The notes beneath the pieces are model-generated. The model did no database searches. It worked only from the letters and a program-made list of their open reading frames with translations, and was not told where the DNA came from. This document shows positions 1 through 15,952 of a stretch of 15,952 nt of DNA, piece by piece. This DNA is from a virus (lineage: Duplodnaviria > Heunggongvirae > Uroviricota > Caudoviricetes): the IMG/VR virus record IMGVR_UViG_2874920711_000013, positions 1 through 15,952 of that record; one strand, written 5' to 3'. A program made the translations under genes and the position numbers. Within the stretch, counting starts at the first letter, position 1; each line of letters begins with the position of its first letter.

Positions 1-1199
1 TCAGGCCGGCATATACCTCAGCAGACTGATATCCCGCGCGTTTTTCTTCAGCCCCTCCACATTCAGTCCCGCGATGGCCCGGCGGTATACCATCCGGCCG
101 CCACACAGCACGCATTCAAACGGGTCACGACTCAGGAACTGCTTCACCATTTGTGCATAGCACACCTTCGCCACCGGTGCCGGTTTATCCATCCCCAGAG
201 CACGGTACACCTGCGGCAGCTTCTCTCCACACACCCGGTTGGCAAGGAACCCGAAGTACCTCACCATCTTAAAAAACTTCTCCGGGATGTGCTGTTTCAG
301 CCTCGCGACCAGCTCACGCTGTGTCAGCGTTTCCGTCGCCGTTTCTCCCGTTTTGTGGTCCAGGTAACGGAAGCTCAGGCTCGCCCCTCCGTTGTAATGT
401 GCCAGCCGGGAGGCCGCTATCGGCGGCTTCTTCAGATAACGACCCAGGTAGCGCGCCGTATTCCTCCCGCCGGCCGTTTTTTTCGACATGTACACATGCC
501 AGTATTTTCCTCCGGCTTTCAGCACCAGGCTTCTCCTCTGTGATTCCGTCGTGATATGTGACAACGACTCCGGCATCGCCAGCCCTCTGACCACGCTTTC
601 AGAAGCCGTTGCCGCATATTCCACATCCACCGCGAACGCATCGCGTCTTTCAGGAAGCTCAGCTTTTTCCACTGACCATGCTTATTCAGATCTCCACAGG
701 TTACAGACACATGTACATGCGGATGCCAGTTGAGACGACGGCCATACGTGTGGATGGCGCAGAAGATACCGGGTTCCTGCCCCCGTTTCCGGGCGGCATA
801 CAGCAGATTCTCCACCGCCAGACGGCACACGTCATTCAGCAGCCACCGGTTGCTTTCGAACACCGGCCACAGCGTGTCCGGCAGGGTGAAGACCAGGTGT
901 ACCCAGTCGCAGTCAGGAAGACGATTCAGCTGTGTCGCTATCCACAGGTCTGTGGCCTTTTTTCCGCAGGACGGGCAGGCACGGCTGCCGCATGAGTTAG
1001 TGACGTATCTGACGTGGGGGCACTCAGGTTTATCGCAGTTGTATTCCTTCACGCCCAGTATCCGCGTGCCGCAGGCCAGCATTTTGGTGACAGCCTCAAC
1101 CTCGATATCGCGCAGACCGCCCGCATCCAGGAAGGATGTCCAGCACTGGTTGGCCGTGAACAGACGTTTCAGCGGGCGGGGAGTAAAAGCGGACAACAT
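1..1199 (-). pseudogene. IS91-family (HUH-Y2 rolling-circle) transposase, split across two frames (N-part 519..1199, C-part 1..672); C-terminus runs off the window start
   Basis: N-part has a Cys-rich zinc-binding motif (CPHVRYVTNSCGSRACPSCGKK) and the HUH motif (NWHPHVHV). C-part has the YxxxYxxK two-tyrosine motif (ARYLGRYLKKPP). The two frames are reconciled by restoring one base in the C-run at 583-585. Confidence 0.8.
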
Positions 1200-1208
1200 G
1201 AGGACGGA

Positions 1209-1397
1209 TTAACCCCCGGTATCCTGTAGCCGGGTAAGGGCTGCTGTGTCGCCACGGCGCTCCAGGATGGAGGCCGCGACCATCGCAGGTGGTGGGTCCA
1301 TGGGTTTGAGCATCTTCATCCAGTCCCATTCACGTTGTGAGAGCTTCTCAGCACCAACAGAGAGCAGAACGGTATCTATACTTTTGCGGGTCAACAT
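1209..1397 (-). CDS. hypothetical 62-aa protein immediately upstream of the IS91-family transposase
   Basis: ORF from the six-frame track only; no convincing Shine-Dalgarno and no recognisable motif. Confidence 0.25.
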   Translation of the reverse strand: MLTRKSIDTVLLSVGAEKLSQREWDWMKMLKPMDPPPAMVAASILERRGDTAALTRLQDTGG

Positions 1398-1603
1398 AAG
1401 AGGATGAGTCCTTAATAAAACAGGTCCTCAGAGCATACATATTCTGCGGAGCGTGCGGCAACAACAGGACGAACAGGGGCGGTTTTCAATTTGCAGCCGT
1501 CAGGCTGCCGTGGTTCTATCTGATGTAGTTCTTACAGGCTTCAGAGTATAGGGTCAGGAGATATTCTGGAGTATTAATTGGCATTTCCGTGAAAATATCA
1601 CGT

Positions 1604-1665
1604 ATTGATAGCTTTTCATCTTCTGTGATTTGCGGGCAAATCACAGAAGGTAGTTATCTATCAAT
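1604..1665. repeat. 62-bp composite palindrome: ATTGATAG-N8-CTTCTGTGATTTG-CGGG-CAAATCACAGAAG-N8-CTATCAAT
   Basis: Read directly: 13-bp perfect inverted arms (1620-1632 / 1637-1649) around a 4-nt centre, flanked at equal 8-bp spacing by 8-bp inverted arms (1604-1611 / 1658-1665). A second inverted TTGATA/TATCAA pair lies at 1801-1806 / 1828-1833. Confidence 0.8.
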
Positions 1666-1834
1666 AATATATTTATTAATAGGCAATCGCCTGAAAATAC
1701 TCTACTTGAATAATTTCTGGTACTTACCTATTAATAAGTAGTTCATTGATTGGTTTTCACCCAAAATTATTTGGGCCAAATATTTATAGATGTTTTCCGA
1801 TTGATAATAACAAAAAAACGGCAATATCTATCAA

Positions 1835-1872
1835 CAAAAAAAAGCAGATCCCGGTCAATCAGGATCTGCTTT
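1835..1872 (-). terminator. intrinsic terminator downstream of the P4-type integrase (bidirectional hairpin)
   Basis: 8-bp stem GCAGATCC / GGATCTGC (1844-1851 / 1862-1869) with a 10-nt loop. The minus-strand transcript has a U8 tract after the stem (plus-strand A-run 1835-1842). Confidence 0.6.
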
Positions 1873-1903
1873 TCCAGTTTTAATGATTTACGCTATTTCT
1901 GAT

Positions 1904-3165
1904 TCAGGCTGCCTTATGCTGCCGCGCATAAATGTACGGCGCGACATACCCCTCGCGGCACACATCCAGATAATCCGACCACCACTGCATCATGGCCTTT
2001 CTGGCCTCCAGATGCTCTGCTTTATGCACATATGCCGCCCGCACGCTGTTGCGCTCCTGGTGGCTCATTTGCCGCTCCACCGTATCGCGTGACCACAGGT
2101 CCGACTCCACCAGGGCGCTACAGGCCATTGCCCTGAGTCCATGCCCACAGACTTCAGTTTTCGTATCATACCCATCAGACGCAGCGCCCGGTTGGTGGTG
2201 TTTTCACTCATTGGCTTGTACGGATTATGGTCGCCGGGAAACACCAGATCCAGATGGCCGGAAAGCTCCTGTATCTGTTTCAGAATGGCAATCGCCTGGC
2301 GGGAGAGCGGCACGATATGCGGGGTACGCATTTTTGCGCCACGCCCCGAAAACCGTACTTTATCAATTGCCTCGCGGGTGGCGGGAATGGTCCAGATTTT
2401 GTGCCTGAAATCGATCTCGCTCCAGCGGGCGAAACGCAGCTCGCTGGAACGGATAAACAGATGCAGCGTCAGCCCCACCGCCAGCCGGGTTAACTCCCGG
2501 CCCTGCCGGTAGTCGCCAATGCGGCCAAGCAGTTCAGGCAATCGCTCCAGCGGTAAAGCGGGATAGTGATTCTTTACGGGTGAGGCGACAACGCCATCCA
2601 GATGCTGCGCCGGATTGCTTGCGGTCAGTCCCTGCTGAACGGCATAGCGCATGATGTTGCTGAGTTGCTGCCGGGTTCGGGACGCGACTTCCAGGAAGCC
2701 TTTATCCTCAATAATCAGCAGTAAAGCCGTGAAATCCTGCGTTTTAAGCGTGGCAACGGGCAGATGACCAATCGCCGGGAAGATATGGTTTTCCATACTG
2801 GCGAGAATACGGGCGGCATACTCAGCCGACCATTTTTTGTTGGTTTTGTGCCAGGCCAGCGCCACCGCCTTAAAGCACTTTTCAGGGGAGCAGGCTGCTT
2901 TCTCTGCCATGCGCTGCTGCGCCGGGTTGATATTCTGCGCCAGTAACTTACGGATACCGTCGCGCTGCTGCCTGGCTTCTGCCAGTGAGGCCAGCGGATA
3001 TGCGCCAAGACTGACTCTGGATTCTTTTCCGTTGAAACGATATTTGCGATACCAGATGCGTGAACCGCTCGGATTGACGAGCAGATACAGACCGTGAGAG
3101 CCGGAGAGTTTTACCGGACGGGAAGAGGGTTTTAACTTGCGGATTTTAGAATCGTTTAAAGACAT
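1904..3165 (-). pseudogene. P4-type tyrosine integrase (DUF4102 N-terminus plus phage-integrase catalytic domain), interrupted by one frameshift
   Basis: N-terminus MSLNDSKIRKLKP...GLYLLVNPSGSRIWYRKYRF is typical of P4-like integrases; ATG at 3165 with GGAG upstream. The catalytic C-terminus (HGLRAMACSALVES...SHQERNSVRAAYVHKAEHLEARK) is in another frame (1904..2182). The frames are reconciled by one extra base in the C-run at 2171-2173. The gene sits beside the 3' side of tRNA-Asn in the same orientation. Confidence 0.85.
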
Positions 3166-3326
3166 TTGAGGGTCACTCCAGAATCGAACCAAACTGCCCC
3201 CAGATCTGACCACCAAATTATCCCGATGCGGAGAGAAAACTAGATACGCACCGGGAAGGATTTTCACGCTAACTTACTGAATCGTAAACAAATAGAAACG
3301 TACAGATAAGCATGAAAACTTGAATT

Positions 3327-3402
3327 TGGCTCCTCTGACTGGACTCGAACCAGTGACATACGGATTAACAGTCCGCCGTTCTACCGACTGAACTACAGAG
3401 GA
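3327..3402 (-). tRNA. asnT: tRNA-Asn (anticodon GUU)
   Basis: 76-nt sequence on the minus strand, TCCTCTGTAGTTCAGTCGGTAGAACGGCGGACTGTTAATCCGTATGTCACTGGTTCGAGTCCAGTCAGAGGAGCCA, matching the E. coli Asn tRNA with encoded CCA. The asnT name comes from its position next to mtfA. Confidence 0.95.
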
Positions 3403-4393: not shown

Positions 4394-4483
4394 GGAGAGA
4401 TGCCGGAGCGGCTGAACGGACCGGTCTCGAAAACCGGAGTGGGGGCAACTCCACCGGGGGTTCAAATCCCCCTCTCTCCGCCA
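4394..4483 (+). tRNA. serU: tRNA-Ser (anticodon CGA), class II tRNA with long variable arm
   Basis: 90-nt sequence GGAGAGATGCCGGAGCGGCTGAACGGACCGGTCTCGAAAACCGG...GGTTCAAATCCCCCTCTCTCCGCCA; anticodon loop CU-CGA-AA. Confidence 0.95.
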
Positions 4484-4528: not shown

Positions 4529-4559
4529 CTTGGAATTACTTGGAATATTTTCTTGGAAT
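4529..4559. repeat. three direct CTTGGAAT repeats between the serU 3' end and the end of int (candidate integrase arm-type sites)
   Basis: CTTGGAAT at 4529-4536, 4539-4546 and 4552-4559. The last two are a 13-bp tandem repeat inside the final int codons (ENIPRKYSK). Confidence 0.45.
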
Positions 4560-5561
4560 ATTTTCAGGTAACGGGACATCAAGTGTCGGTGAAACTTTAA
4601 CCTTCCTGTCATAGATTAGCACTTGCCCCTCGGTTTTGTGACCAGAGAAAAGTTGCTTATCCCGACTGCTTCCTTCATAGTCTGAAATTCCTTTCGCCTT
4701 CAGATCATGAAAGGTGAAGTCGGTTAAAATACCTGAAATTTTGCCTGCGCGATTTCTTGCTTCTACCCACATTTCGTTAAAGCCTTTGTACATATATCGG
4801 TTGCCGTATTGATTGCTGATTACATAGGCGGATGTTGGTAACTGTTTTGCTTTTTCGATCGCCGCCTGTAATCGTGGACTCCATGCTTTTATCTGTTTTT
4901 TTCCTGTTTTCCCTTGCTGGATAAAGATCCCGTCGTTTCCAATCTGCTCCCATTTCAGCGATAACACATCGGAAACCCTCGCTGCACACAGATAGGCAAT
5001 TTCCATTGCGATAAAAACAGGAAGAGGTGCAACGCTTAATACTGCCTGGTATTCTTTGTCGGTTACATATCGTTCGCGGTTTTTGGCCTTGAATTTACTT
5101 ACACCTGCACATGGGTTAGCCTTCACGTACCCTCGCTCATACCCCCAACTGTAAACGCGGGACATACTGCTTTTTTCATGGTTGGCTTGCGTTTTACTCT
5201 GTTCCCCTCTCTTGTCCATGTATCGACGGATGTGTTCTGGTTTTATGGAATCTGCCGGCACCTTACCGAATACGGCAAGCAACTTTTTTTGATGTTGCAG
5301 ATAATCTTTTTGTGTTCTTGGACTGAGGTCACTGTAATAGGCGCTGGCGAGGAATTTTTCCCACAAGCGACCGAATGTCATTGCACGATCGCGATTATTT
5401 ACAGTTTCCTCATACTTTTTCCATAAAGCAGCTAAACCATCCTTGATGGCGGTTAGTGTTACAGATTCTCTGGATGTTGGTTTCCATACATAACTATATT
5501 TATTTGGGTATACATTTGGAGGTAATTTTTCGTGTTCAGGATTTTTCCTTCGTCTTCCCAT
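4536..5561 (-). CDS. int: prophage integrase, lambda-Int family tyrosine recombinase, 341 aa
   Basis: N-terminus MGRRRKNPEHEKLPPNVY resembles the lambda Int arm-binding domain. Catalytic region carries R (AARVSDV), K (QGKTGKK), H (FTFHDLK), H (SGHKTEG) and Y (VLIYDRK). The gene converges on the serU 3' end and is coupled to the upstream xis (TGATG overlap at 5559-5563). Confidence 0.9.
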   Translation of the reverse strand: MGRRRKNPEHEKLPPNVYPNKYSYVWKPTSRESVTLTAIKDGLAALWKKYEETVNNRDRAMTFGRLWEKFLASAYYSDLSPRTQKDYLQHQKKLLAVFGKVPADSIKPEHIRRYMDKRGEQSKTQANHEKSSMSRVYSWGYERGYVKANPCAGVSKFKAKNRERYVTDKEYQAVLSVAPLPVFIAMEIAYLCAARVSDVLSLKWEQIGNDGIFIQQGKTGKKQIKAWSPRLQAAIEKAKQLPTSAYVISNQYGNRYMYKGFNEMWVEARNRAGKISGILTDFTFHDLKAKGISDYEGSSRDKQLFSGHKTEGQVLIYDRKVKVSPTLDVPLPENIPRKYSK

Positions 5562-5730
5562 CAGATCGCACCAAAATTCGGCTCTACCTCGCGTGGTGGT
5601 AAAGTTTTATTGCAGGTAAATAGATCCCGGCTGACAATCGGTTTGCCACTACGATTGGTATAGAACGGAAGCCCGTTTTCCATTAACCATTTTCGCTGGT
5701 GGCTTGCATATTTGCAGCCCGTTAATATTA
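5561..5730 (-). pseudogene. xis: excisionase (Xis-like winged-helix protein) interrupted by an IS insertion; this is the 3' part, and the first 11 codons lie at 6647..6680
   Basis: Removing the IS (5731..6644) and one TA copy restores a 67-aa ORF MSSLFLTEDELLILTGCKYASHQRKWLMENGLPFYTNRSGKPIVSRDLF..., which fits the excisionase pattern (LTG...W...NG.PF....GKP.V.R). Its stop overlaps the int start. Confidence 0.6.
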
Positions 5731-6644
5731 GGCTGTGTCCCTTAATCATCTGAGCTATAGTAACTGTCTGTTTACACAACATATTGAACTATGGCTCGCT
5801 ACGACCTTCCCGATGAGGCATGGACCATCATCAAGCCCCTGTTACCTCCTGAACCCGCCACACCACGGGCCGGACGCCCATGGGCTGAGCACCGTAAAAT
5901 CATCAATGGCATGTTCTGGGTGTTATGTTCCGGTGCACCATGGCGCGATTTACCCGAACGATATGGGTCATGGAAAACTGTTTATAACCGCTTTAACCGA
6001 TGGTCAAAGTCAGGCGTGATTAATATTATTTTCAACAGGTTGCTTTCGCTACTTGATGCAAACGGCTTTATTGACTGGTCTGCCACCGCGCTGGATGGCA
6101 GTAATATCCGGGCGCTGAAATGTGCCGCCGGTGCTCAAAAAAACATCCCGATATCGACGGAGATAATGGGCTGGGTCGCTCTCGCGGCGGTTTTGGCACC
6201 AAAATCCATCTGGCAACAGACGGAAGTGGCCTCCCGTTAAATATCGTGCTAAGCCCGGACAAGCTCATGAAAGCCAGTTCGCGCAACGACTTCTGGACGG
6301 GATTGGCGTTCAGCGTCAGAACGGCAGCATGAAACGCCGTGGACATGCGGTACTGGCTGATAAAGCGTATTCAGGGCGCGCATTGCGCAACGAGCTGAAA
6401 AATAACGGTATAAAGGCAGTAATCCCCGAAAGTCAAATGAGAAAATGGCATCGGATGGACGTGCACAGCTTGATCGTGATGCGTACTGCAATCGTAATGT
6501 CGTTGAACGGTGCTTTGGGCGGCTGAAAGAATATCGCCGCATCGCCACGCGTTACGACAAAACGGCGAGAAATTACCTGGCGATGGTGAAACTGGGCTGC
6601 ATCCGACTCTTTTATCAACGCTTACGTAATTAAGGGACACAGCC
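5731..6644 (+). mobile_element. IS5-family (IS427-like group) insertion sequence, 914 bp, inserted in xis
   Basis: Perfect 16-bp terminal inverted repeats GGCTGTGTCCCTTAAT (5731-5746; reverse complement at 6629-6644) flanked by a TA direct duplication (5729-5730 and 6645-6646). The transposase begins MARYDLPDEAWTIIKPLLPP. Confidence 0.8.
5791..6633 (+). pseudogene. IS5-family transposase (OrfA/OrfB), reading frame broken at three homopolymer sites
   Basis: Conserved transposase segments lie in four successive frames (5791-6240, 6120-6332, 6329-6526, 6445-6633), including ADKAYSGRALRNELKNNGIKAVIPESQ and ERCFGRLKEYRRIATRYDKTARNYLAMV. Shifts are at the A7 run 6137-6143, CCCGG at 6254-6258 and AAA at 6435-6437; each is -1. 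The A7 site could be a natural programmed frameshift. Confidence 0.75.
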
Positions 6645-6738
6645 TAGCAATTCATCTTCGGTTAAAAATAAGCTGCTCATAGCTATATCTCATAACCGCC
6701 GCTAACTATATACGGTTAGCGGCAATTAGGGTTGAACA

Positions 6739-8010
6739 TTAAAAATCAGCCTGACTCGGGATCAGTTTTTGCCAGATAGCTGAAACGTATTTTGCCTGGT
6801 AACGAGCGTCATCAAGTGCATTATGGCGCTCACCTTCGAATGGAATAGCCGTTCTGGCATCGAAGTCTATGGCTTTCCCCAGCTCAACGATTGTGCGTAC
6901 ATCGCGATCGTTGTAGTAACGCCACGGGCAGGGGATCCCCTGCCGTTCGTATGAACGGCGCAAAATCGTGTTGTCGAAGTTGGCTCCATTTCCCCAGACC
7001 TGAACAAAAAATTCACCGGAGTTTTCGTCGATAAATTCCCGCAATTGTAACAGTGCATCATCTAACGGGATTTCATCGGTCATAATGGCAGATTGCGCTT
7101 CGCGTGATTGCTTAAGCCACCATTTAATGGTGTCCCGATCAATGACTCCGCCAGCAGTTTCCAGATCGATAGTCTTACTAAATTCGGGTCCCATATCTCC
7201 GGTTTGCGGATCGAAAAATATTGCACCTATTGAGATGATCGGGGCATCAGGATTTTTTCCCATGGTTTCAAGGTCGATCATTAGATGGTCACACGTCCTG
7301 CTGGTGGATGTGATTTCGTGATGACCATTCACCGTAATTAAGGGATCTGCCGTCTCGCCAGTTTTACTATCGCTGGCGTGGTCCTGAGCGCTGCCAGCAT
7401 TCTCCTTGTGTGGATGTTCAGCGCCTTCCATTTCCTCCGGATCATTTTCCTGAACTTCAACCTGATTCTCTTCATCGAATGTTTTCTGGTATGTTGCGTC
7501 GTCCATCACCGCGCCACAATCAGGGTAGTTGCCGCCACCGCTCTGACCGCAGGCGGTGCAGACTTTTTCCGGTTCCTGTTGCGCTACTGGTTCGGATTGT
7601 TTCGTTTCTGGCTCGTTTTGTAACGCATTTGGGCTGTTTTGTTCCGCTTTTTGGTCGTTCCGTTCCGATTCATGCTGGTTCTGGTTCACAGAATCGCGAG
7701 TCTGGATCCCCTTGACCCATTTCGGATCATTAGGGTCGCTAATCCCCTCAACAAATTCACCACGCGATACAGCAAGTAACTTATCGGCGTCAGGCTGGCT
7801 GATATTGGCTGCCTGCATAATTTTGTTTACTTCGTCAGCGGTGACTTTTACTTGGTTAGCGGAACTCACCTGCGACTGAGCATCCAGCGACTGCGCGTTC
7901 TGGCAATGTTCAGTTGTATCCGGTTCCATTGTTTCAGTTGTTGCCTGTTCACCTGCCATTGCGTCAGATGGTTGTGGTTTTTCTTCTTCTGTTTCACGCT
8001 CAGTAACCAC
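6739..8010 (-). CDS. prophage exonuclease: DnaQ-like DEDDh 3'-5' exonuclease domain after a long acidic low-complexity region; true 5' end uncertain
   Basis: C-terminal domain has the three DEDDh motifs: [21 protein letters not shown] and [14 protein letters not shown]. The listed start is a GTG with a poor ribosome-binding site. Coding-like sequence continues upstream in another frame (8045..8219) across an A5 run at 8038-8042. Confidence 0.75.
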
Positions 8011-8163
8011 CTCGCGGTTAATTTCTTCCAGGATATCTTTTTCCGGCGTATGCCGGGCAGCTGTGAGAGTTTCCTTGCTGGGTTCTCGTGATCAGTTTCT
8101 GTCAAATAGGCGTTGATATACCCCTGAAGGCGTCCCGGGTAGTGATAAAATTCAGGGGTGCGC

Positions 8164-9177
8164 TTAGGATAAGTGCAAAAATAGCGGCGCGGGAATAGTC
8201 CAGAATACCCGGGTTGCACGAAGTGCTGCGGACCATTCTTTGAACGGACTTTCTTTTTTCAGGACTACTTCTTTTGCGCGACGATAAACGCTGCCCGGAA
8301 TTTCATAAATATTAAAATCCATCGGAAGTGTGGCTGCTGCAATCTCCACATCCAGTGTGTCGAGGGTGTGTACTAAATTCGGATTGCGATCGGTTTTGTT
8401 CCCACCGCCAGCATTAGCACCGGAAGCCGTGCGGGTGATGCGTGAAACACGATTTCCTTTCATCCACTCTTTTGTCAGCAGACCCCGATCAGTGTAGTCA
8501 GCGTCCAGGTATGCTTCGAAAAAAGCAGTTATTAGTCCCAGGTCTGAATTACCAGGATTAGGGAAAACTTTGTCAGTGTCACGAACCAGTTTGTGGAGGT
8601 CGCGAATCTCCAGCGAGTCGAGCAGACTGGTTTTATGCGAAATAGCCAGGGCAGTAACAGCCGGTAGTTCTTCAGCCCGTGCAATGTGTAATGCCTGGAG
8701 TTCGTCGCGTGAAACGTGCGTTACTGGTTTTTCGCTGCCGTGTTGAGCAAGCCAACGAATGGGCAGTTCCTGACCGGAGACAGGTAGAAGCATGCTCTCC
8801 TCAATCTCAGTCATGTCTTCGCCGTTGATGTTGGTATTATCAGTGCTGGCTGATTTGTCCTGAACAGAGGGGGAAGGGCCGATAAATGTCATTGTGATGC
8901 CATCTTTCCCGCCTTTTTCATAGCGGTTGCAGAATTCAGTATCAAACACGCCTTCTGGCGGAAGGTCGTCAACAACGGGCAAATTGACGCGGACGGGTTT
9001 TTTAAAGTCGTCTTCATCATAATCGTTGTCATCCATTGCGGTAATGCAGCGGGAGATTGCAACAGATAATTTTTTTGCTGTAGTCCAGTAAAAACCACCT
9101 TTAATTCCTAGGCGTTTTCTTACTTTGACATTTTTTGCTTCGCAATATAGTGCAAATTCTTCTTTATCAGTGCTCAT
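8164..9177 (-). CDS. prophage protein of unknown function, 337 aa; possibly the N-terminal part of a larger exonuclease protein
   Basis: Long ORF with ATG at 9177. It occupies the ydfE-like position after ydfD in a Qin-type gene order. It is in the same frame as the exonuclease ORF. Confidence 0.6.
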
Positions 9178-10749: not shown

Positions 10750-10893
10750 GCTGACCTCATTTCCCCTTAACGCCGGGGTAGCGGAACAAAAACCTGCTGC
10801 ATAGTTATTAAGTAAGCGCCCCATCAGCGACGTCTTGTGAAAATTGTCCTGTCTGGCAACAATCGCGCCCATCTATATTGATGGACACGAACG

Positions 10894-11568
10894 ATGAATT
10901 CCCAGACAACAAAAGATATTCCCTGCTTCCGTTCTTATTTGCCTGATGCCCTGCGTTTAAGATTTGAAGATAAACTGACCATCCGGGCCATCGCTCAGCG
11001 TCTGGGTCTCAGTCATTCCACAATACATACGCTTTTTCAGCGATTTCTTGCATCCGGTATCGCATGGCCATTGCCCGATTCAGTTTCATTCGCTCAACTT
11101 GACGCCATCCTTTATGCCAACAGAAAGAAGGAATTAACAGAGCCTCAAATCAGAGAAGGCTCATGGCGAAAAGAACGGCGAACCAGCTATAGCCGTGAAT
11201 TTAAGGCCCGTCTGGCTAAGCAGGCGTTACAGCCTGGGGCTGTTGTTGCCCGGATCGCCAGAGAACACGATATCAATGATAACCTGCTGTTTAAATGGAA
11301 AAGCCAGTACGAGGACGGCTTACTGAGCGATGATGACATACAGGAATGCATGCCTGTCCCGGTGGCACTGACTGATACGCCGGAGCCGACCAGACCAGTT
11401 ACAAATCCCTTCTGGCGTAACAAGCATGATGAGCGCCCTGAGGGGGCTCCCGGAAACGTCCCACGGTGCGAGCTGCATCTTAAATCAGGTGTGGTAAAAC
11501 TGTTTGACCCTCTCACTCCGGAACTGTTACGGGCGCTAATCCGCGAAATGAAAGGGGGTATCCGATGA
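10894..11568 (+). CDS. IS66-family accessory protein OrfA (helix-turn-helix), 224 aa
   Basis: C-terminal half (RRTSYSREFKARLAKQALQPGAVVARIAREHDINDNLLFKWKSQYEDG) matches the IS66/IS3-type OrfA pattern. ATGA overlap with the next gene at 11565-11568. Confidence 0.7.
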   Translation: MNSQTTKDIPCFRSYLPDALRLRFEDKLTIRAIAQRLGLSHSTIHTLFQRFLASGIAWPLPDSVSFAQLDAILYANRKKELTEPQIREGSWRKERRTSYSREFKARLAKQALQPGAVVARIAREHDINDNLLFKWKSQYEDGLLSDDDIQECMPVPVALTDTPEPTRPVTNPFWRNKHDERPEGAPGNVPRCELHLKSGVVKLFDPLTPELLRALIREMKGGIR

Positions 11569-11912
11569 TAACGCTGCCGACCGGTACCAGAATCTGGATC
11601 ATCGCTGGCATCACAGATATGCGTTGTGGCTTCAATGGCCTGGCTTCGAAGGTGCAGAACACGCTGAAAGATGACCCGTTCTCCGGGCATATCTTCGTCT
11701 TCCGGGGCCGCAGTGGCAAAATGGTGAAAATACTGTGGGCCGATCGTGACGGGTTATGCCTGTTCGCCAAACGCCTGGAACGGGGCCGCTTCGTCTGGCC
11801 GGTGACCCGGGAAGGGAAAGTGCACCTGACGCCAGCTCAGTTATCCATGCTACTGGAGGGGATCGCGTGGCAACATCCCAAACGGACAGAACGGCCTGGC
11901 ATCCGGATATAA
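11565..11912 (+). CDS. IS66-family TnpB (Orf2), 115 aa
   Basis: MITLPTGTRIWIIAGITDMRCGFNGLASKVQ...KMVKILWADRDGLCLFAKRLERGRFVWP is the characteristic IS66 Orf2 sequence. Confidence 0.85.
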   Translation: MITLPTGTRIWIIAGITDMRCGFNGLASKVQNTLKDDPFSGHIFVFRGRSGKMVKILWADRDGLCLFAKRLERGRFVWPVTREGKVHLTPAQLSMLLEGIAWQHPKRTERPGIRI

Positions 11913-11931
11913 CCCGTGATAAAACAAGGGA

Positions 11932-13487
11932 ATGAACAATGAACTCCCCGATGATATTGAGCTGCTTAAAGCCATGTTGCGTAAGCAACAGAGTCGGCTT
12001 CGACAGTATGCCTGTCAGGTCGCGGGCTATGAGCAGGAAATTGAACGGCTGAAAGCGCAACTCGACAGGTTGCGTCGTATGTTGTTCGGCCAGAGTTCAG
12101 AGAAAAAGCGTCATAAGCTTGAAAATCAGATCCGACAGGCAGAAAAACGACTGTCGGAACTGGAAAACCGGCTGAACACAGCCAGAAATCTTCTGGAAGA
12201 TGCATCGTCAGTCACAGATTCACCTGACACCAGTCCCCCGTCAGAAAACCCGATCGCCAGTAAGCCTGAATCCCCGGGAGACACATCGCCTTCTGCCTGC
12301 TGAAACCAGTTGCCCGGCCTGTGGAGGTGTTCTGAAAGAAATGGGGAAACAATCTCAGAGCAACTGGATATCATTAATACCGCCTTTAAAGTTATCGAAA
12401 CCATACGTCCCAAACTGGCCTGTAGCCGGTGTGATGTCATCGTTCAGGCACCACTTCCCCTAAACCGATCGAACGCGGTTATGCCAGTGCAGGGTTACTT
12501 GCACGGATCCTGGTCAGCAAATATATGGAACATATCCCTTTATATCGCCAGTCAGAAATATACGCGCGACAGGGCGTGGAGCTGAGCCGTAATACCATGG
12601 TGCGCTGGGTATCAGAAATGGCAGACAAACTCCGTCCTCTGTATATAGCGCTGAATGACTATGTTCTGGAGGCAGGAAAGGTGCACGCAGATGACACTCC
12701 GGTGAAAGTACTGGCCCCGGGGAACGGAAAGACGAAAACGGGTCGTCTGTGGGTATACGTCAGGGATGATCGTAATGCGGGTTCATCCCTGCCGGCAGCC
12801 GTCTGGTTCGCGTATTCGGCAGATCGCAAAGGAGAACATCCGCAGCTCCACCTGGCAAAGTATCAGGGCGTACTGCAGGCTGATGCCTATGCAGGTTATA
12901 ACGTACTGTACGAAACGGGCCGGGTGAAGGAAGCCGGGTGCCTGGCCCACGCCCGCCGAAAAATCCATGACGAGGATGTGCGCCGTCCGACAGAAATGAC
13001 TCAGGAAGCGCTCAGACGGATAGCAGAGTTATACGACATAGAAGCGGAGATACGTGGCAGTCCGGCAGAGGAACGGCTTGCAGTCAGAAAAGCCAGAAGC
13101 GTCCAGTTGATGCAGTCGTTGTACGACTGGATACAGTTGCAGAGGAAAACGCTGTCGAAATATGCGGAGATGGCGAAGGCGTTCGACTATATCCTGAATC
13201 ACTGGAATGCGCTGAACGAGTTCTGTCGTGACGGCTGGGTGGAAATAGACAACAACATCGGTGAAAACGCGTTACGATCGGTGGCGGTTGGAAGAAAAAA
13301 TTATCTCTTTTTCGGCTCAGACAAGGGAGGAGAAAGTGCGGCGATCATCTACAGTCTGCTGGTCACCTGCAAACAGAACGAAGTGGAGCCGGAGGACTGG
13401 TTGCGCGAAGTGATCGAGAAGCTCAATGACTGGCCGTCGAACCAAGTGCATGAACTGCTGCCCTGGAACTTCTCGTCTGTAAAATAA
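11932..13487 (+). pseudogene. IS66-family transposase TnpC, broken by four single-base frameshifts
   Basis: N-terminal coiled coil (11932-12303), CxxC segment LPAETSCPACGG (frame of 12200-12463), SEQLDII...[16 protein letters not shown] (frame of 12310-12585) and the DDE domain LYRQSEIY...HADDTPV...[10 protein letters not shown] (12525-13487) lie in different frames. Shift sites are GGG 12276-12278, CC/TT near 12289-12292, GGGG 12343-12346 and CCCC 12457-12460. Confidence 0.85.
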
Positions 13488-13639
13488 TCCTTACGCTACG
13501 TACTTCTCGGGGCGCTTACGTTATTAAAGTTGAACCCTGCCGTCATGTTCTTACGCCTCGGGCTGGCTACTTAACCCCTGACCACTGCCTGGTAACTCGA
13601 AGTATTGCCCTGCATTCTGTGGGCGGGGTGGGTGGCAGG

Positions 13640-13690
13640 CATATAATGTACTTTGCGTTCATTGTTGTAAAGTACTTTTAGTACATTTTG
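13640..13690 (-). promoter_or_regulatory. candidate leftward early promoter (pL-like) with flanking operator half-sites
   Basis: On the minus strand: -35 TTTACA (13666-13671), 17-bp spacer, -10 CATTAT (13643-13648). The heptamer ATGTACT or its complement occurs at 13647-13653 and 13680-13686, with palindromic AGTACT at 13671-13676. Confidence 0.4.
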
Positions 13691-13761
13691 TGTGTAAAAA
13701 AATGAGATGGGATAAAGTGAAGCACAAACCCGGAGGAAGGCGCTACCGGATTTATGCTGGT

Positions 13762-14181
13762 TTAAGAGGCTTTTTGTTTTTTCTTTCGTGCTAACTCTTC
13801 GTAAATTGCATTGTACTTCTGTTTTTTCTCTTCAAGAGTTTTTAAAAGTTCATCTGTCTCACTGTCAGGGAGCTCGTCCAGAAGGTCAATGATGATTTTT
13901 TGTCTTGGATTTAACTCCTGATAGAAACGTACCTGTCCACTTTCTTCTGTATCCTCTCCCAAAAGATAGGTTGGTGTTGTTCCTATTAGTGTTGCTAATT
14001 CCCTTAATTTCTCCCGGCGAGGAATTGTTTCGCCATTAAACCATTTGCTAACCGCTTTTGGTGTTAATTTCATTCGACGGGCAATTTCTGCCTGCCTTCC
14101 ATGTTGTTCATAACCAGCGTTTTCACAGGCTAGCGCAAGCCTACTGGCGAACTCTTTACGCGCTTTATCTTCATGAACCAT
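13762..14181 (-). CDS. dicA: prophage repressor, DicA/RacR-like (N-terminal XRE-type helix-turn-helix, no peptidase domain), 139 aa
   Basis: Helix-turn-helix region FASRLALACENAGYEQHGRQAEIARRMKLTPKAVSKWFNGETIP with a charged C-terminal tail. It is divergent from the Cro-like gene and, once IS66 is removed, lies directly upstream of ydfA-ydfB-ydfC-dicF-dicB. The dicA name is by synteny only. Confidence 0.75.
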   Translation of the reverse strand: MVHEDKARKEFASRLALACENAGYEQHGRQAEIARRMKLTPKAVSKWFNGETIPRREKLRELATLIGTTPTYLLGEDTEESGQVRFYQELNPRQKIIIDLLDELPDSETDELLKTLEEKKQKYNAIYEELARKKKQKAS

Positions 14182-14260
14182 AAGTTCAATGATATTCGCT
14201 CTTGAATGTACTGTCAGTTCTGTTATAGCATGTACTCAAAGTTCACATTGTGAGGGTGAT
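14182..14260. promoter_or_regulatory. divergent immunity control region (back-to-back pRM-like and pR-like promoters with operators)
   Basis: Leftward: -35 CTGACA (14212-14217), 17-bp spacer, -10 TATCAT (14189-14194), 7 nt before the repressor ATG, implying a leaderless transcript. Rightward: -35 TTGAAT (14202-14207), -10 near 14224-14229, GAGGGTG ribosome-binding site at 14253-14259. ATGTACT heptamers at 14206-14212 and 14230-14236. Confidence 0.5.
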
Positions 14261-14515
14261 ATGAACCAGAAAACACTTGAAGATGTAATCAAAACTGTTC
14301 GCGTTGCTGTTGTGGCCGACGTTTGTGGTGTCAGCCAAAGAGCAATCTATAAATGGATGGATAACGGAAAATTGCCTCGCACAGAATATACCGGCGAAAC
14401 AAATTACGCTGAAAAAATCGCTCTTGCATCAAACGGATTATTTTCTGCCGATGCAATTTTAACTATTGGCAGGAATAAAACTACTACGAAAAAGCTGATG
14501 GGAGTTGATTCATGA
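14261..14515 (+). CDS. Cro-like / YdaS-like helix-turn-helix protein, 84 aa
   Basis: ATG at 14261 with ribosome-binding site; helix-turn-helix segment VADVCGVSQRAIYKWMDNGKLP. Divergent from the repressor and translationally coupled to the next gene (ATGA at 14512-14515). Confidence 0.7.
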   Translation: MNQKTLEDVIKTVRVAVVADVCGVSQRAIYKWMDNGKLPRTEYTGETNYAEKIALASNGLFSADAILTIGRNKTTTKKLMGVDS

Positions 14516-14838
14516 AAATCAAGCATGAACACATCCGCATGGCGATGAATGCCTGGGCGCATCCGGACGGCGAAAAAGTACCGGCTGCGAAAATTACCAA
14601 AGCGTATTTCGAGCTGGGAATGACGTTCCCGGAACTGTATGACGACAGCCATCCGGAAGCCCTGGCTCGCAATACTCAGAAAATTTTCCGCTGGGTGGAG
14701 AAAGACACCCCTGATGCGGTTAAAAAAATTCAGGCGTTGTTACCAGCTATCGAAAAAGCAATGCCACCTCTGCTGGTGGCCCGAATGCGCAGTCATAGCT
14801 CAGCCTATTTTCGGGAACTAAATAGCTGCGCGGAATAG
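14512..14838 (+). CDS. YdaT-like protein, 108 aa
   Basis: N-terminus MKIKHEHI matches what I recall of Rac-prophage YdaT. The stop codon TAG (14836-14838) lies 2 bp before the IS630 left end. Confidence 0.6.
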   Translation: MKIKHEHIRMAMNAWAHPDGEKVPAAKITKAYFELGMTFPELYDDSHPEALARNTQKIFRWVEKDTPDAVKKIQALLPAIEKAMPPLLVARMRSHSSAYFRELNSCAE

Positions 14839-14840
14839 TA

Positions 14841-15952
14841 GATCACTTTGAGGGAACTTAGCCCGGATTGTGCGATCTGATCAATCGCCAAATCAAAACA
14901 AATCACCAACCGGACTGAGCAATGCCGATCATAGCACCAATTTCCCGTGACGAACGACGCCTGATGCAGAAAGCCATCCATAAAACACACGATAAAAATT
15001 ATGCCCGCAGACTGACTGCCATGCTGATGCTGCACCGGGCGACCGTGTCAGCGACGTTGCCAGAACGCTCTGCTGCGCCCGTTCCTCTGTTGGACGCTGG
15101 ATTAACTGGTTCACGCAGTCGGGTGTTGAGGGACTGAAATCATTACCTGCCGGGCGTGCCCGTCGCTGGCCGTTTGAGCATATCTGCACACTGTTACGTG
15201 AGCTGGTAAAACATTCTCCCGGCGACTTTGGCTACCAGCGTTCACGCTGGAGTACAGAACTGCTGGCAATAAAAATCAATGAGATAACCGGTTGCCAGTT
15301 AAATGCCGGAACCGTTCGCCGCTGGTTGCCGTCTGCGGGGATTGTGTGGCGAAGGGCTGCGCCAACTCTGCGTATCCGTGACCCGTATAAAGATGAAAAG
15401 ATGGCAGCAATCCATAAAGCACTGGACGAATGCAGCGCAGAGCATCCGGTCTTTTATGAAGATGAAGTGGATATCCATCTTCATCCCAAAATCGGTGCGG
15501 ACTGGCAACTGCGCGGACAGCAAAAACGGGTGGTCACGCCGGGACAGAATGAAAAATATTATCTGGCCGGAGCGCTGCACAGCGGGACAGGTAAAGTCAG
15601 CTATGTGGGCGGCAACAGCAAAAGTTCGGCGCTGTTCATCAGCCTGCTGAAGCGGCTTAAAGCGACATACCGTCGGGCGAAAACCATCACGCTGATCGTG
15701 GACAACTACATTATCCACAAAAGCCGGGAAACACAGAGCTGGCTGAAGGAGAACCCGAAGTTCAGGGTCATTTATCAGCCGGTTTACTCGCCATGGGTGA
15801 ATCATGTTGAACGGCTATGGCAGGCACTTCACGACACAATAACGCGTAATCATCAGTGCCGCTCAATGTGGCAACTGTTGAAAAAAGTTCGCCATTTTAT
15901 GGAAACCGTCAGCCCATTCCCCGGAGGCAAACATGGACTGGCAAAAGTGTAG
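14841..15952 (+). mobile_element. IS630 (Tc1/mariner-like insertion sequence), partial; right end beyond the window
   Basis: The transposase matches my recollection of IS630 (MPIIAPISRDERRLMQKAIHKTHDKNYARRLTAML...HGLAKV). The left boundary is estimated (within about 5 bp) from the TA dinucleotide at 14839-14840. Confidence 0.8.
14922..15952 (+). pseudogene. IS630 transposase with a single-base frameshift
   Basis: N-terminal 40 aa are in one frame and the rest (..ELVKHSPGDFGYQRSRWSTELL...MPSAGIVWRRAAP...) in the -1 frame. Restoring one G in the GGG run at 15037-15039 gives a continuous reading frame. Confidence 0.85.

What the first reader, a model, noticed from the sequence alone, without database searches (positions are those of the whole stretch)
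5561..6680. xis is split after codon 11 by an IS5-family element with a clean TA target duplication
The insertion boundaries are exact (16-bp inverted repeats and TA duplication), and removing the IS restores a complete 67-aa excisionase that is translationally coupled to int. This is a recent, precisely datable inactivation event that prevents excision.
Basis: seen in the sequence. Interest (0 to 1): 0.45.

Follow-up and report, generated by a model that had tools for sequence, protein, structure and literature searches.

The report
Known IS element splits prophage xis
A catalogued Shigella insertion sequence (ISSfl7, IS5 family) has jumped into the small putative excisionase gene next to the integrase of a prophage remnant that is already broken; this is ordinary genome decay.

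Summary
Window 5731-6644 is a copy of ISSfl7/ISSfl1 (IS5 family). It has perfect 16-bp terminal inverted repeats and TA on both sides. Many E. coli genomes carry the same prophage with an empty site, a single TA, and an intact 67-aa gene whose stop overlaps the integrase ATG.

The interpretation needs four corrections.
1. The 67-aa protein is Pfam DUF4224. It is called "excisionase" only by PHROG annotation, by its conserved position upstream of integrases, and by a weak MerR/Xis-like winged-helix fold match. No member I found has been tested.
2. "Prevents excision" is moot. An IS630 truncates the prophage 8 kb further on and joins it to the unrelated core genes ycgX-bluR. The window contains no attR.
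3. The event is not datable from this sequence. The same insertion occurs in at least two other assemblies, one of them probably S. dysenteriae E670/74.
4. The window's IS is 914 bp with a broken transposase only because of two 1-bp deletions in C runs. The sister assembly has the normal 916-bp element. Three similar deletions break the neighbouring exonuclease gene. These are most likely assembly errors.

This is ordinary IS-driven decay and of low interest.

The parts
5731..6644 (+). ISSfl7 (= ISSfl1) insertion sequence, IS5 family. It is 914 bp in this assembly and 916 bp in the three other complete copies measured. The transposase reads on the + strand, opposite to xis and int.
   Evidence: Other copies at 99-99.7% identity. 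Alignment to a RefSeq copy annotated 'IS5 family transposase, programmed frameshift'. NF033580 at 319 bits. Pfam DUF4096 plus DDE_Tnp_1.
5731..5746 (+). Left terminal inverted repeat, GGCTGTGTCCCTTAAT.
6629..6644 (-). Right terminal inverted repeat, a perfect complement of the left one.
5729..5730 (.). Left copy of the duplicated TA target. The target context is T-TA-G.
   Evidence: The empty site in SCU-105 has one TA. Flank spacing is 2559 bp.
6645..6646 (.). Right copy of the duplicated TA target.
5791..6240 (+). ISSfl7 orfA (149 aa). The A7 slippery run at 6143-6149 is the site of the annotated -1 programmed frameshift, which gives the 281-aa OrfAB.
6250..6427 (+). Stretch of the transposase gene with two 1-bp deletions in C runs (just after window positions 6253 and 6423). 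They break OrfAB in this assembly only.
   Evidence: Both are absent from the same insertion in L018.
6645..6680 (-). 5' fragment of xis (DUF4224): start codon plus codons 1-12. It now reads into the IS and stops after 16 aa (MSSLFLTEDELLGCVP*).
5561..5730 (-). 3' fragment of xis: codons 12-67 and the stop. It is in frame with ATGs inside the IS at 5782 and 5749, which gives 73-aa and 62-aa fusion ORFs.
   Evidence: The fusion still matches DUF4224 at profile positions 10-43. The 62-aa form is a called gene in two other assemblies.
4536..5561 (-). Intact tyrosine integrase (341 aa). Its ATG overlaps the xis stop by 1 nt.
   Evidence: Pfam Phage_integrase. The exact sequence is on at least 1000 contigs. 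It has 1 aa difference from SCU-105.
4394..4483 (+). tRNA-Ser(CGA), the integration site (attL side) of the prophage.
   Evidence: Same arrangement in SCU-105 and in phage vB_EcoS-689R5.

Best explanation
A copy of the IS5-family element ISSfl7 transposed into the TA of a TTAG site at codon 12 of the small DUF4224 gene. That gene lies immediately upstream of the integrase of a lambdoid prophage integrated at tRNA-Ser(CGA) next to mtfA, and overlaps the integrase start by 1 nt. The insertion duplicated the TA.

**Consequences for the gene.** The promoter-proximal start codon and the first 11-12 codons are now 916 bp away from the rest. The lost residues include the family-invariant Leu6 and the nearly invariant Glu10, that is, strand beta1 and the first turn of helix 1 in the predicted winged helix. 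The gene is therefore most likely a null allele.

**Likely function.** The gene product is probably the prophage's recombination directionality factor. This rests on inference from gene position, PHROG annotation and fold.

**Context.** The host belongs to an IS-laden Shigella-type lineage. The same 11-kb prophage stub also carries an IS66-family element and an IS630, and the IS630 joins it to unrelated chromosomal genes. The xis hit is thus one lesion among several in an element that has already lost its right half. It is not the event that immobilised the prophage.

**Shown:** the IS identity, its boundaries, the TA duplication, the empty site, and the shared insertion in sister genomes.
**Inferred:** loss of Xis function, the RDF role, any polar effect on int, and the order of events.
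For: - IS ends, TA flanks and reconstruction.
- Other ISSfl7 copies.
- IS5-family transposase.
- Empty sites at 99.9% identity with a single TA and an annotated 67-aa DUF4224 gene overlapping int.
- The junction is real: it is identical in CP027027.1 (L018) and in a short-read contig (L019).
- Conserved residues L6 and E10 are lost. Model topology is beta-alpha-alpha-beta-beta.
- RDF inference: PHROG 1266 'excisionase' at 3e-21.
- RDF inference: the DUF4224 gene lies directly upstream of the integrase in E. coli, Pectobacterium ZF40, Stenotrophomonas BUCT708 and Burkholderia phiBtTUL1a. It is two small ORFs away in a Vibrio phage.
- Prophage decay: IS66-family element at 10812-13519 with an 8-bp duplication. 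IS630 from 14822, followed by ycgX-bluR.
Against: - I found no experimentally tested DUF4224 member.
- There is no sequence or profile link to lambda Xis or to any PDB entry.
- One DUF4224 gene (L009) has no integrase within 1.7 kb.
- The 62- and 73-aa fusion ORFs keep residues 12-67 and still score 44.8 bits against DUF4224, so residual activity is not excluded.
- Only 21 kb of the source genome was visible. An attR elsewhere, and the order of the IS events, could not be checked.
Confidence: 0.85

Rival explanations
1. The insertion is an assembly artefact: an IS copy wrongly placed in a long-read assembly that is visibly error-prone.
For: The source assembly CP026824.1 has many split transposase genes. 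It also shows five 1-bp homopolymer deletions in 6.2 kb relative to a sister genome.
Against: The identical junction, with the same TA flanks, is present in the independent complete assembly CP027027.1. It is also in a short-read contig that runs 70 bp into the IS at 100% identity. Homopolymer errors do not create a 914-bp insertion with a target duplication.
Confidence: 0.01
2. The IS copy is old and decayed, because its transposase carries two extra frameshifts. On this reading the event is ancient rather than recent.
For: The window copy is 914 bp. Its OrfAB is broken at about 6253 and about 6423.
Against: The same insertion in L018 is 916 bp with an intact 281-aa OrfAB. It differs from the window only at those two C runs. 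All five indels between the two assemblies are deletions in C or G runs of 4-5 bases, which is the signature of consensus errors. The frameshifted 337-aa exonuclease fragment exists on only one contig in the whole protein collection. The xis fragments carry no substitutions.
Confidence: 0.07
3. The 67-aa DUF4224 protein is not an excisionase. It would be another small DNA-binding or regulatory protein of the early-left operon, so the insertion says nothing about excision.
For: The family is a Pfam DUF and has no NCBIfam model. It shows no detectable homology to lambda Xis or to PDB excisionases. Its pI is 7.8, whereas, from my own knowledge, most RDFs are clearly basic. Its closest structural neighbours, BldC and RacA, are not RDFs. 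L009 has a DUF4224 gene with no integrase nearby.
Against: The gene sits immediately 5' of the tyrosine integrase on the same strand in the five distant hosts sampled. Three PHROG families that match it are labelled excisionase. P2 Cox, Tn916 Xis, Pukovnik Xis and TorI are among the structural hits.
Confidence: 0.15
4. The insertion leaves function intact. A fusion protein starting at an ATG inside the IS end (62 or 73 aa) keeps residues 12-67 and ends at the same stop that overlaps the int ATG. This would preserve both Xis activity and coupling to int.
For: The fusion ORFs are in frame. The fusion still scores above the DUF4224 cut-off, at 44.8 bits against 22. The 62-aa form is called as a gene in two assemblies.
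Against: The fusion lacks invariant L6 and nearly invariant E10, and with them beta1 and the start of helix 1. No outward promoter-like site was found, and no convincing Shine-Dalgarno sequence lies before either ATG.
Confidence: 0.07

Closest known systems
ISSfl7 / ISSfl1 (IS5 family). From my own knowledge of ISfinder's grouping, not checked here, it belongs to the short elements with two ORFs, a -1 frameshift and a TA target, i.e. the IS427-type group.
   Same: 99.0-99.7% nucleotide identity over the full length in the 11 full-length best E. coli hits, and at least 99% in 134 of 176 plasmid records. Same 16-bp ends, the same A7 frameshift site, and TA flanks in a T-TA-G context, as in the CFSAN029787 copy.
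   Different: The copy is 914 bp instead of 916 bp in this assembly, because of two C-run deletions that are probably sequencing errors. It has one substitution (Arg to Cys codon) relative to the CFSAN029787 copy. That substitution is shared with the sister assembly.
IS-mediated pseudogenisation of prophage and chromosomal genes in Shigella, for example ISSfl7 in fimD of S. boydii (PMC4374849).
   Same: The same element and the same mode of gene inactivation, in an IS-dense genome. The window itself carries ISSfl7, an IS66-family element, IS630 and IS91 fragments.
   Different: Only the target gene differs.
Winged-helix recombination directionality factors: lambda Xis, Tn916 Xis, mycobacteriophage Pukovnik Xis, KplE1 TorI and P2 Cox.
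   Same: A small protein encoded directly upstream of its integrase. The predicted topology is beta-alpha-alpha-beta-beta, a MerR/Xis-like winged helix. These proteins appear among the best structural matches.
   Different: No detectable sequence or profile similarity. The structural scores are weak. The pI is near neutral. No member has been tested for function.
XisR (YdaQ) of the E. coli K-12 Rac prophage, an excisionase that has been shown experimentally (PMC4632033).
   Same: A 71-aa protein encoded next to the integrase of a cryptic lambdoid prophage, in the order int-xis-...-exonuclease.
   Different: The sequence is unrelated. My initial recollection that XisR is a DUF4224 protein was wrong.

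Membership tests
IS5-family insertion sequence (ISSfl7) | Near-identical full-length copies at other loci or replicons. | tested here: met
   50 E. coli records and 176 plasmid records match. The 11 full-length best E. coli hits are 99.0-99.7% identical over the whole element.
IS5-family insertion sequence (ISSfl7) | DDE transposase of the IS5 type. | tested here: met
   NF033580 transpos_IS5_3 at 319 bits (cut-off 110). Pfam DUF4096 plus DDE_Tnp_1. The test used the OrfAB conceptual translation, which is intact in the sister copy.
IS5-family insertion sequence (ISSfl7) | Terminal inverted repeats at the exact ends of the inserted DNA. | tested here: met
   16 of 16 bases match in the repeats. 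The ends coincide with the break in homology to the empty site.
IS5-family insertion sequence (ISSfl7) | Short target-site duplication (TA). | tested here: met
   One TA in the empty site and two in the occupied site. The copy in L001 also has TA flanks. The plasmid copy L020 lacks the left TA.
IS5-family insertion sequence (ISSfl7) | -1 programmed frameshift joining orfA and orfB. | tested here: inconclusive
   An A7 run sits at 6143-6149. A conceptual -1 shift gives a 281-aa product that covers the whole NF033580 profile. RefSeq annotates a 'programmed frameshift'. Frameshifting itself cannot be tested here.
Excisionase / recombination directionality factor | Small gene adjacent to, and co-oriented with, the cognate integrase. 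| tested here: met
   A 1-nt overlap with int here and in SCU-105. A gap of 2-4 nt in ZF40, BUCT708 and phiBtTUL1a, and a nearby position in Vaitephage. Exception: L009.
Excisionase / recombination directionality factor | Winged-helix (MerR/Xis-like) DNA-binding fold. | tested here: inconclusive
Excisionase / recombination directionality factor | Sequence membership in a family that contains a characterised excisionase. | tested here: not met
   Pfam DUF4224 only. PHROG 'excisionase' labels are annotations. No PDB or lambda Xis similarity. The three papers that mention DUF4224 mention it only once or twice each, and none has it in title or abstract.
Excisionase / recombination directionality factor | Binds att arms and stimulates Int-mediated excision. 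| not testable with these tools
   Needs EMSA and excision assays.

The most novel reading that the evidence does not exclude
The same 204-bp gene has been hit independently in two Shigella lineages. ISSfl7 sits at the TA of TTAG in the S. dysenteriae-type genomes. IS630 sits 7 bp away, at the TA of GTTAAT, in S. boydii. The most novel reading not excluded is convergent selection to knock out the directionality factor and so lock in the serU prophage stub with its dicB/ydf cargo. The alternative is chance in IS-saturated genomes. A by-product would be that DUF4224 becomes a tractable, so far untested RDF family.
Probability: 0.08. Interest if true: 0.35.

Novelty: already known. Interest (0 to 1): 0.08.

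Why it matters
It matters little beyond annotation.

- It gives a clean, lineage-specific marker: ISSfl7 at xis codon 12 of the serU prophage remnant. The marker could help type or bracket a Shigella dysenteriae-like clade.
- It shows that the apparent frameshifts in this assembly, in the IS transposase and the exonuclease, should not be read as biology.
- It flags DUF4224 as a probable excisionase family that has not been tested experimentally.

Tried and rejected
- **K-12 XisR as a tested DUF4224 member.** I expected this from memory. The XisR sequence is unrelated, so the idea was dropped.
- **Exact-junction scans.** Scans of genome contigs (one genome per GTDB species) and of metagenome contigs found no match. 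The look-up of the 73-aa fusion ORF also found nothing. The 62-aa form did find the sister genomes.
- **Naming the source organism.** A paper search for the accession found nothing. Neighbouring plasmid accessions CP026823, CP026825 and CP026826 are not in PLSDB. Only the accession CP026824.1 is established. The Shigella assignment is an inference from IS content and from the sister assembly.
- **'Old, decayed IS copy'.** I first read the two extra frameshifts in the transposase this way. I rejected it after comparison with L018.
- **P0008 as a third independent IS hit.** It looked like one but is a mosaic or deletion junction next to a DNA methylase gene.
- **Promoter and terminator scan across the IS.** It gave nothing above chance.
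- **The search for related loci with the DUF4224 alignment.** The synteny survey therefore rests on a handful of phage records.
Full report
**1. What is in the sequence**

The 16-mer GGCTGTGTCCCTTAAT occurs exactly twice in the window, at 5731-5746 (+) and 6629-6644 (-). Shuffled sequence expects 0.01 matches. TA lies immediately outside both ends, at 5729-5730 and 6645-6646.

On the minus strand an ATG at 6680 opens MSSLFLTEDELL, which then runs into the element. Deleting 5731-6646 restores a 67-codon ORF. Its TGA stop (5563-5561) shares its last base with the ATG of a 341-aa tyrosine integrase at 4536-5561. The break falls after base 1 of codon 12. The duplicated TA is bases 2-3 of that CTA codon.

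**2. The inserted DNA is a known IS**

The 914 bp match ISSfl7 (annotated ISSfl1 in pCP301). The 11 full-length best E. coli hits are 99.0-99.7% identical over the whole element. Of the 176 plasmid records with a match, 134 are at least 99% identical, and 130 of the 176 are from Shigella.

RefSeq annotates these copies as 'IS5 family transposase, programmed frameshift'. The conceptual OrfAB (281 aa, with a -1 shift at the A7 run 6143-6149) scores 319 bits on NCBIfam NF033580, cut-off 110. It has the Pfam domains DUF4096 and DDE_Tnp_1.

ISSfl7 has been reported to interrupt fimD in S. boydii (PMC4374849).

**3. The empty site exists**

With the IS removed, int, xis and the exonuclease gene match more than 50 E. 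coli chromosomes at >=99% identity. In the 30 best records listed, the two flanks lie 2559-2560 bp apart, against an expected 3475-916 = 2559.

In E. coli SCU-105 the site reads CGTTAATAT-TA-GCAATTC with one TA. The 67-aa gene is annotated there as WP_000096344.1, 'DUF4224 domain-containing protein', and overlaps int. The reconstructed protein is identical to it. int plus xis differ from SCU-105 at 1 of 1229 bases.

The prophage sits at tRNA-Ser(CGA) beside mtfA. An induced phage record, vB_EcoS-689R5, has the same int-xis-exonuclease arrangement.

**4. The insertion is real and shared**

The window is part of GenBank CP026824.1. A look-up of the 62-aa fusion ORF found the same junction in two further assemblies:
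- CP027027.1. The next accession, NZ_CP027028.1, is a plasmid of S. dysenteriae E670/74. Calling CP027027.1 that strain's chromosome is an inference from this.
- The short-read contig JAAOUC010000222.1.

Both are identical to the window at the junction. Misassembly is thereby excluded. The insertion is a lineage marker, not a private event.

**5. Sequence-quality caveat**

In this window the IS transposase is broken twice beyond the programmed frameshift, and the neighbouring 813-aa exonuclease gene is split into 6739-8010 and 8164-9177.

Over 6.2 kb the window differs from CP027027.1 by one substitution and five 1-bp deletions. The deletions are C4 to C3, C5 to C4, G4 to G3, G5 to G4 and G4 to G3, at about 6253, 6423, 8079, 8154 and 8210. 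In CP027027.1 the IS is 916 bp with an intact OrfAB, and the exonuclease is 813 aa.

In the surrounding 21 kb of the source genome, the IS4, IS91, IS66 and IS630 transposase genes are all called as split or shortened fragments. The 337-aa exonuclease fragment occurs on a single contig in the whole collection.

The simplest reading is homopolymer consensus error in this assembly. The IS copy should be regarded as intact.

**6. Is the gene 'xis'?**

Evidence against a firm call:
- Pfam places it in DUF4224 at 1.9e-15, and NCBIfam has no model for it.
- No solved structure matches by sequence or by a profile of 41 diverse homologues.
- hhalign against lambda Xis gives 0.5% probability.
- The experimentally shown Rac excisionase XisR is unrelated.
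- The pI is 7.8.
- One metagenomic DUF4224 gene lies in an early-gene cluster with no integrase within 1.7 kb.

Evidence for:
- Three PHROG families labelled 'excisionase' match, the best at 3e-21.
- The gene lies directly upstream of the integrase in E. coli, Pectobacterium ZF40 (annotated excisionase), Stenotrophomonas BUCT708 and Burkholderia phiBtTUL1a. It lies close to the integrase in a Vibrio phage.
- In L012 it lies upstream of an integrase gene that appears to be interrupted by an IS21-type element. That reading is my inference from the gene calls.
- An AlphaFold2 model of the 82%-identical intact homologue P0002 has mean pLDDT 75, with 81-88 over residues 11-50, and beta-alpha-alpha-beta-beta topology.

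I conclude that it is probably the directionality factor (about 0.8). This rests on position and fold, not on experiment.

**7. Consequence of the insertion**

The upstream fragment now encodes a 16-aa peptide. The downstream 56 codons are in frame with two ATGs inside the IS, giving 73-aa and 62-aa fusion ORFs that end at the native stop.

The fusions lack Leu6 (invariant in 41 homologues) and Glu10 (at least 90% conserved). In the model these lie in beta1 and the first turn of helix 1. No outward promoter-like site and no convincing ribosome-binding site precedes either ATG.

Loss of function is therefore likely but not shown. int itself is intact. Whether its translation depended on coupling to xis is inference.

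**8. Why 'prevents excision' is moot**

Comparison with SCU-105 shows two more IS elements in the same 11-kb prophage stub:
- An IS66-family element at 10812-13519, with IR GTAAGCGCCCC and the 8-bp duplication GTTATTAA.
- A full-length IS630 starting at 14822 inside ydaT.

Beyond the IS630 the chromosome continues with ycgX-bluR. These core genes are present in 5039 of 5426 E. coli genomes. From my own knowledge, in K-12 they lie far from mtfA and serU.

No repeat of the attL core occurs in the window. The replication, late and attR parts of the prophage are therefore no longer contiguous. Excision would fail with or without Xis. The order of these events cannot be read from 21 kb.

**9. Recency**

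The data are consistent with a young insertion:
- No substitutions in either xis fragment.
- 1 substitution in 1229 bp against an E. coli allele.
- The IS differs by 1 base from a chromosomal E. coli copy.

'Precisely datable' is not justified. Dating needs the distribution of the junction on a phylogeny.

**10. An independent hit**

In three S. boydii assemblies an IS630 sits in the same gene 7 bp away, at the TA of GTTAAT. The int gene there is further broken by IS3-family elements.

The window alone carries three complete ISs in its 11-kb prophage stub, and both elements insert at TA sites. Chance is therefore the default explanation. Selection for locking in the remnant is possible but unsupported.

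**11. Verdict**

This is a correctly observed, textbook IS insertion of a catalogued element into a prophage accessory gene, in an IS-saturated genome of a Shigella-type lineage. It is already present in public assemblies. Interest is low.

Noticed in passing
window about 6253, 6423, 8079, 8154, 8210: Five 1-bp deletions, all in C or G runs of 4-5 bases, relative to the sister assembly CP027027.1. They break the ISSfl7 transposase and split the 813-aa exonuclease gene (6739-9177, minus strand) into 423-aa and 337-aa ORFs. They are most likely homopolymer consensus errors of the assembly, not real pseudogenes.
   Followed up: yes
window 10812-13519: An IS66-family element of 2708 bp, with three ORFs, terminal repeat GTAAGCGCCCC and the 8-bp target duplication GTTATTAA. 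It is inserted between ydfA and the cI-like repressor gene of the prophage. Its transposase is also called as split ORFs (123 aa plus 320 aa).
   Followed up: partly
window 14822-15952 (continues to L007 3207): A full-length IS630 inserted in ydaT. On its far side the chromosome continues with the core genes ycgX-bluR-(IS4)-bluF instead of the rest of the prophage. The prophage is therefore truncated or rearranged at this IS.
   Followed up: partly
window 1-3402: A second integrative element lies next to tRNA-Asn (3327-3402, minus strand). It has a P4-type integrase with an Arm-DNA-bind_3 domain at 2065-3267 (minus strand) and split IS91-family (Y2 transposase) ORFs at 1-1199. In E. coli SCU-105 the large Ig-like adhesin gene occupies this position.
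   Followed up: no
L004-L006 (S. boydii assemblies GCA_031665775.1, GCA_031665605.1, GCA_031665565.1), locus positions 4889-6039: An independent IS630 insertion in the same DUF4224/xis gene, 7 bp from the ISSfl7 site. It produces a 67-aa fusion protein (P0001) that is annotated as a normal DUF4224 protein. The adjacent int gene is broken up by IS3-family elements.
   Followed up: partly
window 13634-14500: The immunity region (cI-like gene 13762-14181 on the minus strand, cro-like gene 14261-14515 on the plus strand) has no nucleotide match to the otherwise 99.5-99.9% identical SCU-105 prophage. ydaT matches at only 93%. This is a different immunity module, i.e. a mosaic.
   Followed up: no
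L020 (S. dysenteriae E670/74 plasmid NZ_CP027028.1), locus positions 201-1116: This ISSfl7 copy has CA instead of TA on its left flank, so it lacks a target duplication. That may be a trace of recombination between IS copies.
   Followed up: no
L009 2984-3196; L021 2755-3003: Not every DUF4224 gene abuts an integrase. In L009 it lies among small early genes next to an Acb2/Tad1-like gene. In L021 the C-terminal half of this xis is fused to unrelated sequence downstream of a DNA methylase gene. That is a mosaic junction, not an IS.
   Followed up: partly
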